Below are positions 775 to 9,700 of a DNA stretch of 64,000 nucleotides, one piece after another. This DNA comes from Escherichia coli (GTDB lineage Bacteria; Pseudomonadota; Gammaproteobacteria; Enterobacterales; Enterobacteriaceae): assembly GCF_051903065.1 (NCBI RefSeq), contig NZ_CP178439.1; one strand, written 5' to 3'. The stretch's first letter is position 1. Each line of letters starts with the position of its first letter. Made by a program: the position numbers.

Positions 775-3700
775 CTGATATTGAATATGAAATCAGTCAG
801 GTGCAGCTCGGGCGACGTAAAACAACATACAGTGAGTGCATTGAAAGCCTGATCATTGATGAGACCAGTTCCCGGGAATGGCTATATCATCCATTAATGC
901 ATGAACTTGAATCTGAACCTCTTCAGGAGTATCGGGGACGGGAGCCTTCAGAGGAAGGGCCTCTTCTTCAGCGCCTTGCTGACTGTAAGATGAAATTGCC
1001 TGATATCCTTCCGGGCAGTCATAACGCGCTAGTCAGGTTACAGCAGGATACGATTGTATGTCTGTGTCGGTTAACGGTTCGGGCTTATGACATCGCTCAG
1101 ACCGATGAATTTCCTTTGTTCCTTCGCTATTTCAGGTTGCACTGCCTGGAAAACAGCGAACATGTCAGTTACGAAAGACTGATCTGCTGGCAGGAAATGA
1201 TTTCAAAAACCCAGGAAGGCCAGTCCTTGACACAAAACGAACTTGAATATCTTCATGAGATTGTCCGCATCGCCTTTTACAATCACCGGCTTAACAATGT
1301 CAGTATTTCAGATGTTAAAAACCATGACACTGGAAAGAAGAGCGGCAGGGTAGAGTCACAAAACTATTCACTTTTATAAATAACTTGGGCTTTGCGCATT
1401 AAACCCTTGCCGCAGGCGGTGTACCGCATATCCGGCACAGACAGTCAGTTTTTTCTGGCAGCTTAAATTTGACACTGCTTAATATAGTGATTCATTAAAC
1501 AGGTTCAGTATGCTGCCAGAACGTTTTAGTCGTAATGGGCGTCCGTTAGTTTTCAACTAACTGAACGACGACCAGCCTGCCGCCTTCCTCCTTTGACAGA
1601 ACAAACTGAGCGTTATTCGTCAGTTCAATTTTTTCCCCAATGGCAATCTGTCGTTTATCCGGTAATGACATAAGCCCATTTATGCCTTCATTTACTAACC
1701 ACCACTGATCGTTATGGAAAACAAAATACCCAACTCGTTTCCTTTGTGCATCGGTTGTGCGCTCATTTGGCGCAATGAGGCGATTCACATGCCACGCATA
1801 GATTGACTGCCCGCTCCACACCATCAACCGGTGGTCGTCAGGACGATAACTGCCTTCCTTTCGGGATGAATATAAATTTAGAACCGGTAATTTACCCTTG
1901 TATGGCGTACCGCAGTAGGGACAAACCGGCTTTGTCTTACCTGAGAAAACGTACCATTTCTGTTCACACGCCTTGTTCTGGCAGGGCTGTATCAGATCGA
2001 CTGTTTTAACCAGGGCACTTTCCCACTCATCGGCGGTCGGGCGTTTATTGGCATCGTGTAAGCCATCAATAAAGGCGCGTTCAAACAAAGGCGTCAAATA
2101 AGGGCCCATGATGGTGTAAGGAATTTTCTCCGGGTCAGCCCAGGGCAGTGAAAAGGAGGATAGCTGACTGACTTTGACTGCATTGCTTTTGTCTGTCGGA
2201 TGTTCAATGAAGAGTGCCTTCTCACCCATAGATAAGGTCTCATCACGTACTTCATCCGACATGTCATGTATTTTTCCGCCACGTAGCGGATGACGGAAGA
2301 ACAGATACATGTAGATAAGCACCGACAGCGCATGACGGTCAGTAGAAATGCTTGGCAATACGCGGTTCGGATCCTCTTTGGAAAGATGGCTGGTTTTCAC
2401 CACTTCCGGAGCGATAAAATCCGGGGTGCCCACGACGTCGGGAGGATACTTTCCAGGGACAACCAGGCCGTCTACGTCAATGATGCAGGCATGTCCCATT
2501 TCTGGATCGATAAGCACGTTTTTATAGCTTAGATCGCTGTGACAGAGACCTGCCGCATGCATCCTTCTGACGGCTCTTGTTAGCAGCAGACAGACCTTGA
2601 GATAGGTAAGCGTATTGCCTCGTTCACGTGGGTCGAGAAATTTATTCTGGTTGCTGGCGCTGGCAAACCATTTGCCTTCCTTTTCACGGCCTTTTATGCC
2701 AAGAAAATCATCGTTTTTAGAGCCGTATTTAAAGAAAAAGTAGCTTTTGTAGGTTGGAACCACGATGCCGATTTTATCCCCATGCTCAACAACGTGGGTC
2801 GGCCAGCAAAACAGGTCCTTCCAGTATTCACCTCCGGACTGGCCAAAAATGTTTTGCCTGTAGCGTCCGGTGATCATATCAATCCGATCCCGGGCCTGCT
2901 CGTTCTGCGGTTTATGATAAAAAGCGACGACGTATGATTTATCAGGCGAGAAGTAAACATCCTTCATCGAGCCCGAACCAATTACCTCGTCAACATACTG
3001 GACTGTTTCGCCGTCCTTTGTTTTGCACGTAACAATATTTGCCATATTGATCACCGAAGAAGCGTATCCCTTACCACAACACCGCAATAGTGCGGTCATC
3101 GTGGTTCCCTGTGGAGAAAAAGTTAAGCCAGTCGCCTAACCTCTCAGGCGCAATACTGGCGTCTGTAAGGACAGGGATGAGCTCATCAAGGAGACGGGTC
3201 CATTTTTCGTCACTGCGAAGCCCGTTATCTGTCTCAAACAGAGGGTCTGATACGCCATCTGTCATGAGGATCAAGTGAGATACATCATTCCATTTACCCA
3301 CGCTGATGCGGCCGCTAAACGAGGGGTCTGCGATAATGCTCTGGTCAAGAAAGCGGGTTTGTCCTGCGTATTCTCCGCTATCGGGATTTCCCAGTATCCT
3401 GACTTTACCGGAAGGGCTGTATGCACCTATCGCACCATCACCAAGCCAGAATGCAGCCGCAAACAGCTCGTTATCAGTTCGTAGCGCTACAGTTGCCAGT
3501 AGGGTTGTTGAATAGGATTTCACAGGTTGTTCTGCACAAATGGCTTCGTTCTGGATACTGTTGACCGCGAGCGTAGCTGCCTGTTTAAAATGATGAAGCA
3601 TGGCGTTTATGGTTGCCTGCTGATCGCTCCCTTCCCACGCCGTGATGTGCTGCTTTAGATGGACGCCTTTCAAACCACTGAGCTGATTGAAAAGGTAATC

Positions 3701-6700: not shown

Positions 6701-9700
6701 TCACCATTGTAGATCTGAACGATGAACACAATTTTCTCGTACTGAGCGTCAAGGGAATTCAGGCGCACAATAATTTGCTCATCGTCACCATCACCGGCTC
6801 CGGTTCGGTTATCGCCCGTCAGCCAGATATTTCCTGACTTATGGCGAAGGCTGTTGAAAAAGATGATATCGCCATTCACAAGCGTTGGTTTACCATTTTC
6901 CACATTGCCGAGATCGGTCACCTTTCCGGCTGAATTACACAGGAAAGCGATCACATCAAGGTCGTATTCTTCTTCTTTTTTACCAAAGATCCCGCCGAGG
7001 AAACCTTTCTTTTCCTCATTAATATCCCAACCCAGGCCGATAGTAACGGACGAGAGATCGTATTCATTTTTTTTCAGGCTTACGCCCTGGCCTTTGCTCA
7101 GACTGACAGACATGACATCCCCTTAATTAATAAAATTATAAGACCACGTTTACTTCTGGCGGCGGCGGTGGCAGGTCTTCAAGACCGATCACTTCTTTTT
7201 TGCTGGACTCCACTTTCTGACTGCCTACCGAAATGCTCGCACTGACCCATTTAAAGAAAGCTTTAATCGTCGAACTGTCAGCTGTATCGAGCTGAACCAC
7301 GATTTCAGTGATTTCTTTGAGGACGCTGGTATCGGCATCATGCCCGGCTGCACATGCCACAACAACGCCGGTTCTGGCCGCTTTAAAGTCATTCAGGCCT
7401 TTACGCCAGTCATCATTCGGACTTCCATCCGTCATCAGGAATACAAGGGGACGCCAGTCACCTTTAGTGTCAGCCGTCGTTTTCTGTACTTCTTTGGCAA
7501 TGGAGCTGGCCGTGAGGGAAAGCGCTTCGCCAAGAGAGGTGGTGCCGCTGGCTGTTAGTGCTGGCATCTGGAAACTCAGGAGGTCTGTCAGGGGGACTGC
7601 CTGTCGGGCTGAAGAATCAAAGGTGATCACTGACACGTAAGCCGTTTCGAGTGCATACGGATCCTGTTTCAGCGTGGTAAGCAGCGTCTGAACGCCATTC
7701 TTAACCGCTTCGATAGGCTCTCCGTGCATAGAGCCGGACGTGTCGAGTAGCAGATATACGGGTAAGCGTCTCAAATGTAATTCCTTCTTAAGAGATCGGA
7801 AGAGGAGAGTAGTTTCAGGAAGAGGCCAGAGTTTGTAGATTTGATAAAACGGCACGACATCTGTCGGGTGGAGATTAAATACTCAGAAGCGGCATTAAAG
7901 AAATAAGTTAACCACCATTGAATTACCGACATGTGAATGGCCTCTTATCAGAGAAAAAAATTCAGACCGTACTGGAATATAAATTTCTGAAAAAAACTCC
8001 GGCAAAAATAAACTTTCTTATGTATGAAAATCATCATACATCACAGATCTGCATGAATGGAGTGTAAATCGCCCAAAGATTGATGTGTAGCACAAGAGGA
8101 TGTCAAGACACCAGGTTTTGTAGGCAGAAAGGCGCTGCTGACATTGCGGGAGGAGAATAGATCAAAACTCCGTCACGCAGATACAGAGGTGAAATATGAC
8201 AAAACCGGGGTTTTCACCCCGGTCTGAGATTTAGCGTCAGGACTTTTTAGCGCTGTATTCTTTTATCAGTTCATCAACGGAGTGCAGAGCCAGCTTCTCT
8301 ACCGCTTCACTTCGGGTCGAGCCACTCAGCGCAGCCAGACGGTCAATTTTTCTTAAAATCCGCATGCGTAGCGATAATGACACGGCTGTTTTTTTATCCT
8401 TATCGAGTACGACCTTCCCTGTGGACTCACCGGTTTTCAGTTCAGCATTCTGTGCGAGCGCTTCATTCATCCGGCGAAGGGTCTTTTTATCCAGCTGGCC
8501 CGGATTAACGAGATGGTAGGAATGACCTGCCTTGCTGTATTTGATCTCCGCAGAATATGACTCGCGTAGCTCTTTGAGTGCCCGGGTTAATGTCGGCTCT
8601 GAGCATTCCAGACTGGTTATAATGTCGGCAGCGGAAACGGGCTTGCCGGTGCCCAGTAAGTTGGCAAGCTTAAAAATCCGGGCCTGTCTGGTATTTAATT
8701 GCATCGTAAGATTTAGCCTGCTTAAAGGGTTAGTGGTTCAATAGGCTGAAAAATGAAGGTACTGCTCATCTTTCGAATAACCGGGTGATCGCCTAACGCT
8801 TCAACCGGATCAATGTGTTCTAAGCCTGCAAAATTTACTGACGACATCTGGCTGCGACTGCATTTGCAGGACAGGATATACTCATCCTCCAGATAGCCGG
8901 TCCGCTTACTGACCCGTTGCGTAAAGCCTGACACAATCACGTTGTCGAACGGTAGCGTATGTAAAACGATACCGACCAGGCGGAACAAGCAGCCATGGAC
9001 GTGGCGGGCATAGTTTTCGCGTACGGCTTTTTGCGTCATGGCTTTTTCCGTCAGCTCCGTGCCCCGGGCATTAACGCCGTAAATCTTATCAGGGAAATCT
9101 TCAATCTCAGCTAAATCAACATCCAGCAGGACTGCTGATAGCTCCGGCTTTACTTCAAATGCAACAAGCGTTTCACGCGGCCATTCAGTTTCTGCCAGCA
9201 CACCCGCCAGGTATGATTCGAAAAACGCGGCGTCTGTCCGGAACTGCTGCCGGGCATCTGCCTGAGCCGTGGCGAGCCGTTTTTCATGTTCTTCAGCCTC
9301 AAACTTCCAGTTTGCATACTGTTCGGCCCAGGCCGTCCGTTGTTGCTGGTACCGGTGCTGTCGAAGGGTATTCTCACGCTCCACATCAATCAGCTCCTGC
9401 TGCCACCGGCGAAGATTTTCGGCGTGGCGCTCAGCTTTAGCTGATTCCGATTCAAACCATTTACCCAGAAAACTAATGCCTTCGCTCTCGGCAGGCTTTT
9501 CCGGCAATGCAAGATAGTCTGGCTTTTCTGGACGCACCGGTGCCGGAACCTGAAAAGGCGACGTTCTGTTATGCAGGTATACTGCTTCCAGCTCTGCCCA
9601 GCTGATGCCTGTTTTAGGATCCGGCGTCAGCTCGTGAATATTACGGATTGCGGTCACCGCTGACATGAGATCAGCGGCTTCCTCCTCAAGCGCCTGTCTG

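What the first reader, a model, noticed from the sequence alone, without database searches (positions are those of the whole stretch)
1546..7855. Kinase / PP2C phosphatase / vWA signalling triad with three vWA paralogs and a TerD-family gene
Six consecutive minus-strand genes encode a Hanks-type kinase, a PP2C phosphatase and vWA (TerY-like) proteins plus a TerD-family protein. The kinase-phosphatase overlap (29 bp) and phosphatase-vWA overlap (4 bp) indicate translational coupling. Both the kinase and the first vWA protein end in Cys-rich zinc ribbons. This arrangement was predicted computationally as a ter-linked phospho-signalling module, but as far as I know its substrates and trigger are not established.
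Basis: partly seen in the sequence, partly recalled or inferred. Interest (0 to 1): 0.5.

Follow-up and report, generated by a model that had tools for sequence, protein, structure and literature searches.

The report
Known ter-linked kinase/phosphatase/vWA cassette
This is the well-known terY1-terX-terY2-terY3-phosphatase-kinase block of the tellurite-resistance (ter) cluster of IncHI2 plasmids, identical to hundreds of sequenced plasmids; it was predicted in 2012 to be a phospho-signalling switch, but its biochemistry is still untested.

Summary
The six minus-strand genes are real and their domains are confirmed: three MIDAS-intact vWA proteins (the third with a TerY-C zinc domain), a TerD-family protein (TerX), a PP2C phosphatase and a Hanks-type kinase. 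The block is 100% identical to IncHI2 plasmids such as pAPEC-O1-R and occurs in 339 of 5,426 complete E. coli genomes. It is the "TerY-P triad" plus terY1-terX-terY2 described by Anantharaman et al. (2012).

- The finding's end coordinate 7855 comes from a longest-ORF call; the real terY1 start is 7774. By the same logic the terY3 and kinase starts are 5748 and 3045.
- The 29-bp kinase/phosphatase overlap does not exist. A 25-nt spacer separates the two genes.
- The kinase zinc ribbon is internal and is followed by a 115-residue all-beta domain found only in this kinase family.

The experimentally validated anti-phage "TerY-P" system (Gao 2020) shares the architecture and gene order but shows only superfamily-level sequence similarity. 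Its curated models do not hit these proteins.

I found no biochemical study of this cassette, so substrates and trigger remain unknown. Verdict: a correct reading of an already known, widespread module, of low novelty.

The parts
7136..7774 (-). terY1: 212-aa vWA protein with an intact MIDAS motif (D11, S13, S15, T79, D116). It ends in an invariant LPPPPPE(V/I)xxVL tail. Start is TTG 7774.
   Evidence: Pfam VWA 4.6e-14; RefSeq start; SD AAGGA; alignment A2
6472..7113 (-). terX: 213-aa TerD-family protein that keeps the GDNRTGAGDGDDE segment aligned with the corresponding acidic segment of solved TerD. The sequence is named TerX in UniRef (representative TERX_SERMA, from the R478 host Serratia marcescens).
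   Evidence: Pfam TerD 1.3e-52; PDB 3ibz 1.5e-37 and 2kxt 1.8e-33; cluster names
5834..6472 (-). terY2: 212-aa vWA protein with intact MIDAS and the same poly-proline tail. Its start overlaps the terX stop by 1 nt.
5794..5830 (-). Perfect 17-bp stem-loop in the 85-nt terY2-terY3 spacer, with no U-tract. It separates terY1-X-Y2 from the triad.
   Evidence: Fold -39.9 kcal/mol, z -4.4. A stem-loop sits at the same position in IncHI1B p8025, with one compensatory change, and a stem-loop of different sequence sits there in Klebsiella.
4708..5748 (-). terY3: 346 aa. vWA domain at aa 6-160 (nt 5269-5733) plus TerY-C Cys-rich metal-binding domain at aa 217-346 (nt 4711-5100).
   Evidence: Pfam VWA 1.5e-13, TerY_C 4.2e-53; start ATG 5748 with SD GAGGA
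3071..4708 (-). PP2C phosphatase, 545 aa. N-terminal helices aa 7-59; disordered linker about aa 61-155; Ig-like beta domain aa 161-243 (nt 3980-4228); PP2C catalytic domain aa 266-545 (nt 3074-3913) with all metal-binding Asp motifs invariant.
   Evidence: Pfam PP2C_2 1.3e-46; alignments A3 and A6; model pLDDT 80; Foldseek PP2C hits down to 1e-9; SraP Ig-like match 4e-5; He_PIG in homolog P0517
1546..3045 (-). Ser/Thr kinase, 499 aa. Protein-kinase fold aa 1-350 (nt 1996-3045) with H169-x-D171...N176, D192 and A212-P-E214 conserved. Zinc ribbon aa 352-382 (nt 1900-1992). Family-specific all-beta C-terminal domain aa 385-499 (nt 1549-1893).
7976..8040 (-). Candidate regulatory region of the cassette: a 20-bp palindrome TGTATGA-N6-TCATACA (8021-8040) directly upstream of a sigma-70-like site (8005-7976).
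   Evidence: A terminator-like hairpin after terW at 8225-8202 suggests a separate transcription unit. PMC7843439 proposes a TerW site before terY1 in Pectobacterium.

Best explanation
The region is the terY1-terX-terY2-terY3-PP2C-kinase cassette of the R478/IncHI2-type tellurite-resistance (ter) cluster. It consists of a TerY-P (TerY-phosphorylation) triad preceded by two extra TerY paralogs and a TerD-family protein.

Shown:
- All catalytic and metal-binding motifs are intact, namely three MIDAS vWA domains, the TerD-type acidic (Ca-site) segment of TerX, the PP2C Asp motifs, and the kinase HxD/N/D/APE residues.
- The genes are tightly packed and co-directional.
- The gene order is conserved from Enterobacterales to Chromatiales and a betaproteobacterium.
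- The kinase family sits next to a PP2C gene, with a vWA gene alongside wherever enough flanking sequence was recovered, usually close to Ter genes.

Inferred mechanism: the cassette is a reversible Ser/Thr phospho-switch acting on a metal-dependent scaffold.
- The kinase is held together with its zinc ribbon and private C-terminal beta domain as one rigid unit. That unit probably reads the trigger or docks the substrate.
- The kinase phosphorylates the TerY vWA proteins and/or TerX. This changes how they assemble with the membrane-associated Ter proteins (TerC, TerB, TerD/Z/E).
- The PP2C resets the switch. Its long disordered linker and Ig-like domain may tether it to the same complex.

The output would be tuning of the Ter stress response that gives IncHI2 plasmids tellurite, colicin and phage resistance. 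The trigger and substrates are unknown.
For: Identity:
- 100% nucleotide identity to IncHI2 plasmids; 1,305 PLSDB records match.
- Present in 339 of 5,426 complete E. coli genomes.
- The exact protein sequences are on at least 1,000 contigs each, under the names TerX and TerY2.
- Full ter context is present: ATPgrasp_Ter, PRTase_2, StiP+PELOTA, C-C_Bond_Lyase, DUF4236, terW, and divergent terZABCDE plus a TerF-like gene.

Activity motifs: MIDAS residues invariant in all three TerY orthologous groups; PP2C Asp motifs invariant; kinase catalytic residues 90-100% conserved; confident folds.

Conserved unit:
- Identical six-gene order in Thiorhodococcus (L003) and a betaproteobacterium (L004).
- Minimal triad next to TerD, AIM24, ATPgrasp_Ter and PRTase_2 genes in L008.
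- PP2C immediately upstream of the kinase in 8 of the 11 other contexts sampled; a ninth (L018) has an unannotated 584-aa gene in that position.

Literature: the TerY-P concept (PMC4978471, PMC11090510); terXYW co-cloning needed to tolerate terZA (PMC4633105, citing Whelan 1997); more complete clusters give better survival of tellurite/oxidative stress (PMC11003894).
Against: - No experiment links the kinase or PP2C to any Ter phenotype.
- The protective effect of the terXYW region was later attributed to terW alone (PMC4633105).
- Tellurite, phage and colicin resistance map to terZABCDE (PMC12054061, citing Whelan 1995).
- Phosphorylation of TerY is assumed from the system's name and has not been demonstrated.
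- The aligned beta3 lysine position is His44 in this clade (K or R in 31 of 44 homologs), so the ATP-anchoring residue is not certain.
- The C-terminal domain has no recognisable relative, so its sensing or docking role is a guess.
Confidence: 0.55

Rival explanations
1. The triad, with or without terY1-X-Y2, is an autonomous anti-phage defence system like the validated TerY-P system. The kinase would sense infection and phosphorylate phage or host proteins, independently of terZABCDE. Linkage to ter would then reflect only a shared defence/stress island.
For: Same three-domain architecture and the same gene order (vWA, PP2C, kinase) as the E. coli G3/10 TerY-P system. That system class protects against T7-like phages without killing the cell (PMC7699616; 10.1101/2022.08.12.503731). 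IncHI2 plasmids have a phage-inhibition phenotype (PMC12054061). The PADLOC kinase models mad6 and PD-T4-6 give weak hits. TerY-P triads also ride with CoCoNuT restriction systems (PMC11090510).
Against: There is no meaningful sequence relationship to the validated system. BLASTP E-values are 0.05 or worse. hhalign finds only the kinase catalytic core (3.5e-5), a MIDAS fragment (0.008) and nothing for PP2C. The PADLOC and NCBIfam TerY-P models do not hit. The kinase C-terminus here is a zinc ribbon plus an unknown beta domain, whereas the validated kinases are described as carrying an OB fold. This kinase family is persistently next to Ter genes. The R478 phage-inhibition phenotype was mapped to terZ, terC and terD (PMC12054061).
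Confidence: 0.25
2. The cassette is mainly an internal safety device. It keeps the toxic TerZ/TerA/TerB module in check, acting as a post-translational partner to the transcriptional repressor TerW, and does not sense an external stress.
For: Cloning terZABCDEF or terZA from R478 is lethal or causes filamentation unless the terXYW region is co-cloned (PMC4633105, citing Whelan 1997). The cassette lies directly downstream of terW, with a candidate operator of its own.
Against: Protection was later assigned to terW (PMC4633105). pJS4, carrying terW plus terZABCDE but no terY or terX, is viable and fully tellurite-resistant at MIC 5 mM (PMC11003894). The original constructs contained only terX and one terY, without the kinase or PP2C.
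Confidence: 0.1
3. The triad regulates, or responds to, the product of the adjacent biosynthetic operon (ATP-grasp, PRTase, HAD-like, StiP/PELOTA, C-C lyase). That operon is predicted to make a nucleoside-like metabolite.
For: The two units are adjacent and co-directional here. They are also adjacent in L008 (triad directly followed by TerD genes, then ATPgrasp_Ter, PRTase_2, StiP, lyase) and in L004 (HAD and PRTase_3 right after the kinase).
Against: L003, L005 and L007 have the triad without these enzymes within 10 kb. No ligand-binding domain for a nucleoside is recognisable in any of the six proteins.
Confidence: 0.1

Closest known systems
TerY-P (TerY-phosphorylation) triad of Ter-dependent stress-response systems (Anantharaman, Iyer & Aravind 2012, PMID 23044854; described in PMC4978471 and PMC11090510)
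   Same: TerY-like vWA, PP2C and Ser/Thr kinase with a zinc ribbon, adjacent and co-directional, embedded in a ter cluster. This locus is a textbook instance.
   Different: None in kind. Two details were established here and I could not check them against the original paper, which is not held. The kinase ribbon is followed by a 115-aa all-beta domain private to the family. The PP2C carries N-terminal helices, a disordered linker and an Ig-like domain.
terW-terY-terX 'protective region' of IncHI2 plasmid R478 and the terWY1XY2Y3 nomenclature of pKL53-L (Whelan 1997 via PMC4633105; PMC11003894)
   Same: Same genes. The TerX sequence carries the UniRef name TerX with representative TERX_SERMA. 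Same position between terW and the plasmid backbone.
   Different: The older literature names only terW, terX and terY; the kinase and PP2C genes are usually left unnamed.
Stand-alone TerY-P anti-phage system (Gao et al. 2020; E. coli G3/10 locus L002; P. aeruginosa variant of Costa et al.)
   Same: vWA, PP2C and kinase in the same order; MIDAS vWA; active-looking kinase.
   Different: Short proteins (277, 239 and 561 aa) without TerY-C, Ig-like or zinc-ribbon domains. The kinase C-terminus is described as an OB fold. Pairwise similarity is insignificant, and the curated TerY-P models do not match the window proteins. It sits next to a type I R-M system rather than ter genes.
Type VI secretion threonine-phosphorylation pathway PpkA / PppA / Fha1 of Pseudomonas aeruginosa (from my own knowledge)
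   Same: A Hanks kinase, a PP2C phosphatase and a vWA domain cooperate as a post-translational on/off switch for a membrane-associated machine.
   Different: In PpkA the vWA domain is fused to the kinase, and an FHA protein is the substrate. Here the vWA proteins are separate, no FHA domain is detectable by sequence, and there are no T6SS genes.

Membership tests
TerY-P triad (Anantharaman 2012) | TerY-like vWA protein with intact MIDAS | tested here: met
   VWA hits and invariant D-x-S-x-S, T and D residues in all three paralogs
TerY-P triad (Anantharaman 2012) | PP2C-family phosphatase adjacent to the vWA gene | tested here: met
   PP2C_2 1e-46; metal-binding Asp motifs invariant; PP2C fold; TGATG stop/start overlap with terY3
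TerY-P triad (Anantharaman 2012) | Hanks-type Ser/Thr kinase adjacent, fused at its C-terminus to a zinc ribbon | tested here: met
TerY-P triad (Anantharaman 2012) | Phosphorylation of TerY by the kinase and reversal by the PP2C | not testable with these tools
   Needs biochemistry. No paper reporting it was found.
R478/IncHI2-type ter cluster | Near-identity to and synteny with terW and terZABCDE on IncHI2 plasmids | tested here: met
   100% identity to pAPEC-O1-R and others, with the same neighbours
TerY-P anti-phage system (Gao 2020; NCBIfam and PADLOC models) | Match to the curated family models of the three proteins | tested here: not met
   No PADLOC hit for the vWA, PP2C or TerD proteins, and only generic kinase hits. 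No NCBIfam TerY-P model hit, although RefSeq gives the G3/10 proteins these TerY-P product names.
TerY-P anti-phage system (Gao 2020; NCBIfam and PADLOC models) | Three-gene architecture vWA-PP2C-kinase in that order | tested here: met
TerY-P anti-phage system (Gao 2020; NCBIfam and PADLOC models) | Kinase C-terminal OB fold (as described in PMC11090510) | tested here: inconclusive
   The C-terminus is a zinc ribbon plus an all-beta domain of eight strands and one short helix. It has no sequence match to any Pfam or PDB entry. Its fold could not be searched on its own.
TerY-P anti-phage system (Gao 2020; NCBIfam and PADLOC models) | Protection against phage when expressed alone | not testable with these tools
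   Needs plaque assays
TerD family (TerX) | TerD fold retaining the acidic GDNxTGxGxGDDE segment of solved TerD proteins | tested here: met
   Pfam 1e-52; PDB 3ibz 1.5e-37 with the motif aligned
FHA-domain phospho-threonine readers (considered for the kinase C-terminal domain) | Sequence match to FHA, with GR ... SxxH ... NG motifs in that order | tested here: not met
   FHA hit in 1 of 27 members at E 0.2. A profile search of PDB gave no hit at E up to 10. The conserved residues come in the order WH ... N ... GR.

The most novel reading that the evidence does not exclude
The ter-linked cassette is a plasmid-borne sensor whose kinase reads a specific trigger through its rigidly attached zinc ribbon and private C-terminal beta domain. 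The trigger could be a phage or colicin component, or a metal or nucleoside-like signal. The invariant poly-proline tails and the adjacent Ser-rich segment of TerY1 and TerY2 would serve as docking and acceptor sites. Phosphorylation would then gate assembly of the TerC/TerD membrane complex. That would give a mechanistic bridge between 'tellurite resistance' and anti-phage immunity that differs from the validated stand-alone TerY-P system.
Probability: 0.15. Interest if true: 0.6.

Novelty: already known. Interest (0 to 1): 0.2.

Why it matters
The ter cluster is carried by major multidrug-resistance plasmids (IncHI2, the Klebsiella virulence/IncHI1B plasmids) and by pathogenic E. coli such as O104:H4. 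It is a fitness and stress-tolerance factor whose real function is still debated. The kinase/PP2C/vWA cassette is its only obvious signalling component and has never been studied biochemically. Finding its trigger and substrates would clarify what the ter system senses. As a genome-scan finding, though, nothing here is new. The genes, their domains and the signalling hypothesis have been in the literature since 2012, and the sequence is identical to hundreds of database entries.

Tried and rejected
1. FHA hypothesis for the kinase C-terminal domain. It was suggested by a G-x-x-V-x-L-x-x-G pattern. It has no sequence support and the motif order is wrong.

2. Membership in the validated TerY-P defence family. 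The PADLOC and NCBIfam models do not hit. Pairwise and profile comparisons with the E. coli G3/10 system reach only superfamily level.

3. The 'helix-hairpin-helix' name that NCBI and COG give the kinase. No HhH model hits. In the model, residues 310-350 are the ordinary C-lobe helices of a kinase, containing the invariant R335.

4. A WNK-like catalytic lysine in the glycine loop (K28, present in 33 of 44 homologs), or K122 (40 of 44), as a replacement for the beta3 lysine (His44 here). This could not be resolved without model coordinates and is left open.

6. A search for the C-domain in other architectures returned only kinase fragments.

7. Rfam scan of positions 1-16000: no known RNA family.

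8. Phage genomes: no phage carries this kinase; the single weak hit is at 29% identity.

9. The primary papers (Anantharaman 2012; Whelan 1997) are not held in the library. Their content is cited second-hand.

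
Full report
**What is there**

Window 1546-7774 (minus strand) holds six co-directional genes without internal stops. Pfam assigns them as follows.

| Gene | Coordinates | Pfam result |
|---|---|---|
| terY1 | 7136-7774 | VWA 4.6e-14 |
| terX | 6472-7113 | TerD 1.3e-52 |
| terY2 | 5834-6472 | VWA 2.6e-12 |
| terY3 | 4708-5748 | VWA 1.5e-13 plus TerY_C 4.2e-53 |
| PP2C phosphatase | 3071-4708 | PP2C_2 1.3e-46 |
| Protein kinase | 1546-3045 | Pkinase 6e-10, C-lobe only; Kdo 5e-5 |

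- The stretch 1400-8000 is 100% identical to IncHI2 plasmids such as pAPEC-O1-R. It matches 1,305 PLSDB plasmids, 733 of them at 99% identity or more.
- The block occurs in 339 of 5,426 complete E. coli genomes. Most copies are on plasmids, but some are chromosomal, for example in O104:H4.
- The exact protein sequences are each on at least 1,000 public contigs. The names attached to them include 'Tellurium resistance protein TerX' (UniRef representative TERX_SERMA) and 'TerY2'.
- The surroundings are the canonical ter cluster. Upstream on the same strand lie ATPgrasp_Ter, PRTase_2+TRSP, a HAD-like gene, StiP+PELOTA, C-C_Bond_Lyase, DUF4236 and terW. terZABCDE and a TerF-like TerD+vWA gene are transcribed divergently.

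**Corrections to the observation**

- *Kinase start.* Nearly all of the 120 best kinase homologs listed are 499-509 aa. ATG 3045 is preceded by GGTGATC, which is complementary to the 3' end of 16S rRNA, at good spacing. RefSeq uses the same start. The PP2C stop at 3073-3071 is therefore followed by a 25-nt spacer, and the claimed 29-bp overlap does not exist. In a betaproteobacterium (L004) and in L016 the two genes do overlap by 4 nt, so tight coupling is common in the family but is not a feature of this locus.
- *terY1 start.* It is TTG 7774, with SD AAGGA. This gives the N-terminus MRRLPVY shared by all TerY proteins.
- *terY3 start.* It is ATG 5748.
- *Real overlaps.* The PP2C start overlaps the terY3 stop as TGATG, behind GGGAGAGG. 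terX and terY2 also overlap by 1 nt.
- *Zinc ribbons.* TerY3 does end in the Cys-rich TerY-C domain. The kinase ribbon (C355, C360, C375, C378; 98-100% conserved) is internal.

**Anatomy of the proteins**

*Kinase.* A 44-sequence alignment of full-length homologs down to 32% identity gave an AlphaFold2 model with mean pLDDT 94.9 and pTM 0.94.
- The catalytic residues H169-x-D171, N176, D192 and A212-P-E214, plus R335, are conserved.
- The aligned beta3 lysine column is K or R in 31 of 44 sequences but His44 in this clade, with K45 next to it. K28 in the glycine loop and K122 are also strongly conserved. Which residue anchors ATP is unresolved.
- After the ribbon comes an all-beta domain of eight strands and one short helix (residues 385-499) with near-invariant W418-H419, N452 and G489-R490.
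- That domain has no Pfam or PDB sequence relative. A profile search found it only in fragments of this kinase family.
- The high pTM suggests that the kinase, ribbon and C-domain form one rigid unit.

*PP2C.* The model (pLDDT 80) has four parts.
- N-terminal helices, residues 7-59.
- A disordered linker, about residues 61-155.
- A confident Ig-like beta domain, residues 161-243. It resembles the SraP adhesin module at sequence level (4e-5), and a homolog carries a He_PIG annotation.
- The catalytic domain, residues 266-545, with every metal-binding Asp motif invariant and PP2C fold matches.

*TerY proteins.* The three TerY proteins are ancient paralogs.
- Each is 57-75% identical to its ortholog in Chromatiales and a betaproteobacterium, but only 36-48% identical to its neighbours in the same locus.
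- All keep the MIDAS residues.
- TerY1 and TerY2 end in an invariant LPPPPPE(V/I)xxVL tail, preceded by a conserved Ser-rich segment.

*TerX.* It aligns with solved TerD structures, and its GDNRTGAGDGDDE segment aligns with the matching acidic segment of TerD.

**Conservation of the unit**

- The identical six-gene order occurs in Thiorhodococcus (L003) and a betaproteobacterium (L004).
- A minimal triad (vWA+TerY_C, PP2C, kinase) sits beside TerD, AIM24, ATPgrasp_Ter, PRTase_2, StiP and lyase genes in L008.
- Other contexts combine the triad with TerD, vWA, AIM24 and a PIF1 helicase (L005), with an FHA-ABC transporter (L007), or with TerC and DUF4236 (L010).
- PP2C lies directly upstream of the kinase in 8 of the 11 other contexts sampled. 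In a ninth (L018) an unannotated 584-aa gene occupies that position.
- Between the window and L003/L004 the kinase is 66-67% identical, the PP2C catalytic half 50-56%, and the PP2C N-terminal half only 22-27%.

**Regulatory features**

- terW is followed by a terminator-like hairpin at 8225-8202.
- A sigma-70-like site lies at 8005-7976, with a perfect 20-bp palindrome just upstream at 8021-8040.
- This fits the proposal of a TerW site in front of a separate terY operon in Pectobacterium (PMC7843439).
- The 85-nt terY2-terY3 spacer contains a perfect 17-bp stem-loop without a U-tract (-39.9 kcal/mol, z -4.4).
- The IncHI1B plasmid p8025 keeps that stem with one compensatory change. The Klebsiella version has a stem-loop of different sequence at the same place.
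- The hairpin may set different expression levels for terY1-X-Y2 and the triad, or stabilise the mRNA. This was not tested.

**Comparison with what is known**

- The arrangement is the TerY-phosphorylation (TerY-P) triad defined computationally by Anantharaman, Iyer and Aravind in 2012. I know that paper only through later papers that describe it (PMC4978471, PMC11090510). They give the triad as TerY-like vWA, PP2C and a Ser/Thr kinase with a C-terminal zinc ribbon, hypothesised to be a metal-sensing phospho-switch.
- The genes are named terWY1XY2Y3 or terY-CYXYW in the tellurite literature.
- Classical work on R478 reported that terZA is toxic unless the terXYW region is present. That effect was later assigned to terW.
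- A stand-alone 'TerY-P' system was validated as an anti-phage defence (Gao 2020). A P. aeruginosa variant protects against Autographiviridae without killing the cell.
- I retrieved the E. coli G3/10 system used by Stokar-Avihail et al. and compared it directly. BLASTP finds nothing significant. Profile comparison finds only the kinase catalytic core (3.5e-5) and a MIDAS fragment (0.008). The PADLOC and NCBIfam TerY-P models do not hit the window proteins.
- The validated system is therefore an architectural analogue and a very distant relative. Its phenotype cannot be transferred by homology.

**Mechanism**

The best-supported reading is a reversible Ser/Thr phospho-switch acting on a metal-dependent vWA/TerD scaffold that feeds into the Ter stress response.

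- *Shown:* intact active sites, tight operon structure, conserved gene order, and persistent Ter linkage.
- *Inferred:* the substrates (TerY and/or TerX), the sensing or docking role of the ribbon plus C-domain, the tethering role of the PP2C N-terminus, and the output.
- *Rivals:* an autonomous anti-phage system; an internal antidote to TerZ/TerA toxicity; a regulator of the neighbouring nucleoside-like biosynthesis operon.

I found no paper that reports substrates, triggers or mutant phenotypes for the kinase or PP2C.

**Verdict**

The feature is real, ordinary for this plasmid family and already described. Its open biochemistry gives it some experimental interest but little novelty as a scan finding.

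Noticed in passing
window 5794-5830 (-): Perfect 17-bp stem-loop, without a U-tract, in the terY2-terY3 spacer. A stem-loop sits at the same position in IncHI1B p8025, with one compensatory change, and a stem-loop of different sequence sits there in Klebsiella plasmids. It may be an mRNA processing or stability element or a partial terminator that splits the cassette into two expression units.
   Followed up: partly
window 7976-8040 and 15198-15222: A 20-bp perfect palindrome TGTATGAaaatcaTCATACA lies just upstream of a promoter-like site in front of terY1. The terZ upstream region contains a related ATGATATGATTTTC. These are candidate TerW operators. In addition, GCAGC(G/A)CCTTTCTG occurs both at 8125-8138 and in the 5794-5830 hairpin.
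   Followed up: partly
window 46-708 (+) and 747-1379 (+): An IstB-like IS21 helper ATPase (Pfam 3e-101) lies next to the kinase-distal flank. The ORF at 747-1379 looks like the C-terminal 210 aa of a 360-aa hypothetical gene annotated as a single CDS in pAPEC-O1-R. An IS21-family insertion has probably truncated it in this plasmid.
   Followed up: partly
window 7136-7180 and 5834-5880 (C-termini of TerY1 and TerY2): An invariant LPPPPPE(V/I)xxVL tail, preceded by a conserved Ser-rich WVSASVxxGSxS segment, is present in all TerY1 and TerY2 orthologs examined. TerY3 lacks the poly-proline tail. It looks like a docking motif with candidate phospho-acceptor sites.
   Followed up: no
window 2911-2916 (kinase codons 44-45): The column where most homologs have the beta3 Lys/Arg is His44 in the IncHI2/Klebsiella/Pectobacterium clade, followed by K45. 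K28 in the glycine loop and K122 are highly conserved. This may be an atypical ATP-anchoring arrangement.
   Followed up: partly
window 3071-4708 compared with L003 and L004: Evolutionary rates within the cassette are very uneven. The kinase is 66-67% identical between the window and Chromatiales/betaproteobacterial homologs (and 86% to its closest Klebsiella/Pectobacterium/Shewanella homologs). The N-terminal half of the PP2C is only 22-27% identical and contains a roughly 95-residue disordered linker.
   Followed up: partly
L005 8518-11452; L006; L017 259-3267: Some distant loci carry two tandem kinase paralogs of this family. L007 places the triad next to an FHA-domain ABC transporter and a DA1-like peptidase.
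   Followed up: no
window about 22800-64000: The rest of the window is a typical IncHI2 multidrug-resistance region. It includes IS21, an HTH/HipA toxin-antitoxin pair (26816-28141), HNH endonuclease genes, a class 1 integron (dfrA12-aadA2-qacEdelta1-sul1; GC 0.66 at 34-36 kb), several IS26 copies, aac(3)-IId, ISEcp1-blaCTX-M-55, blaTEM-1, blaLAP-2, qnrS1 and aadA22-lnu(F).
   Followed up: partly
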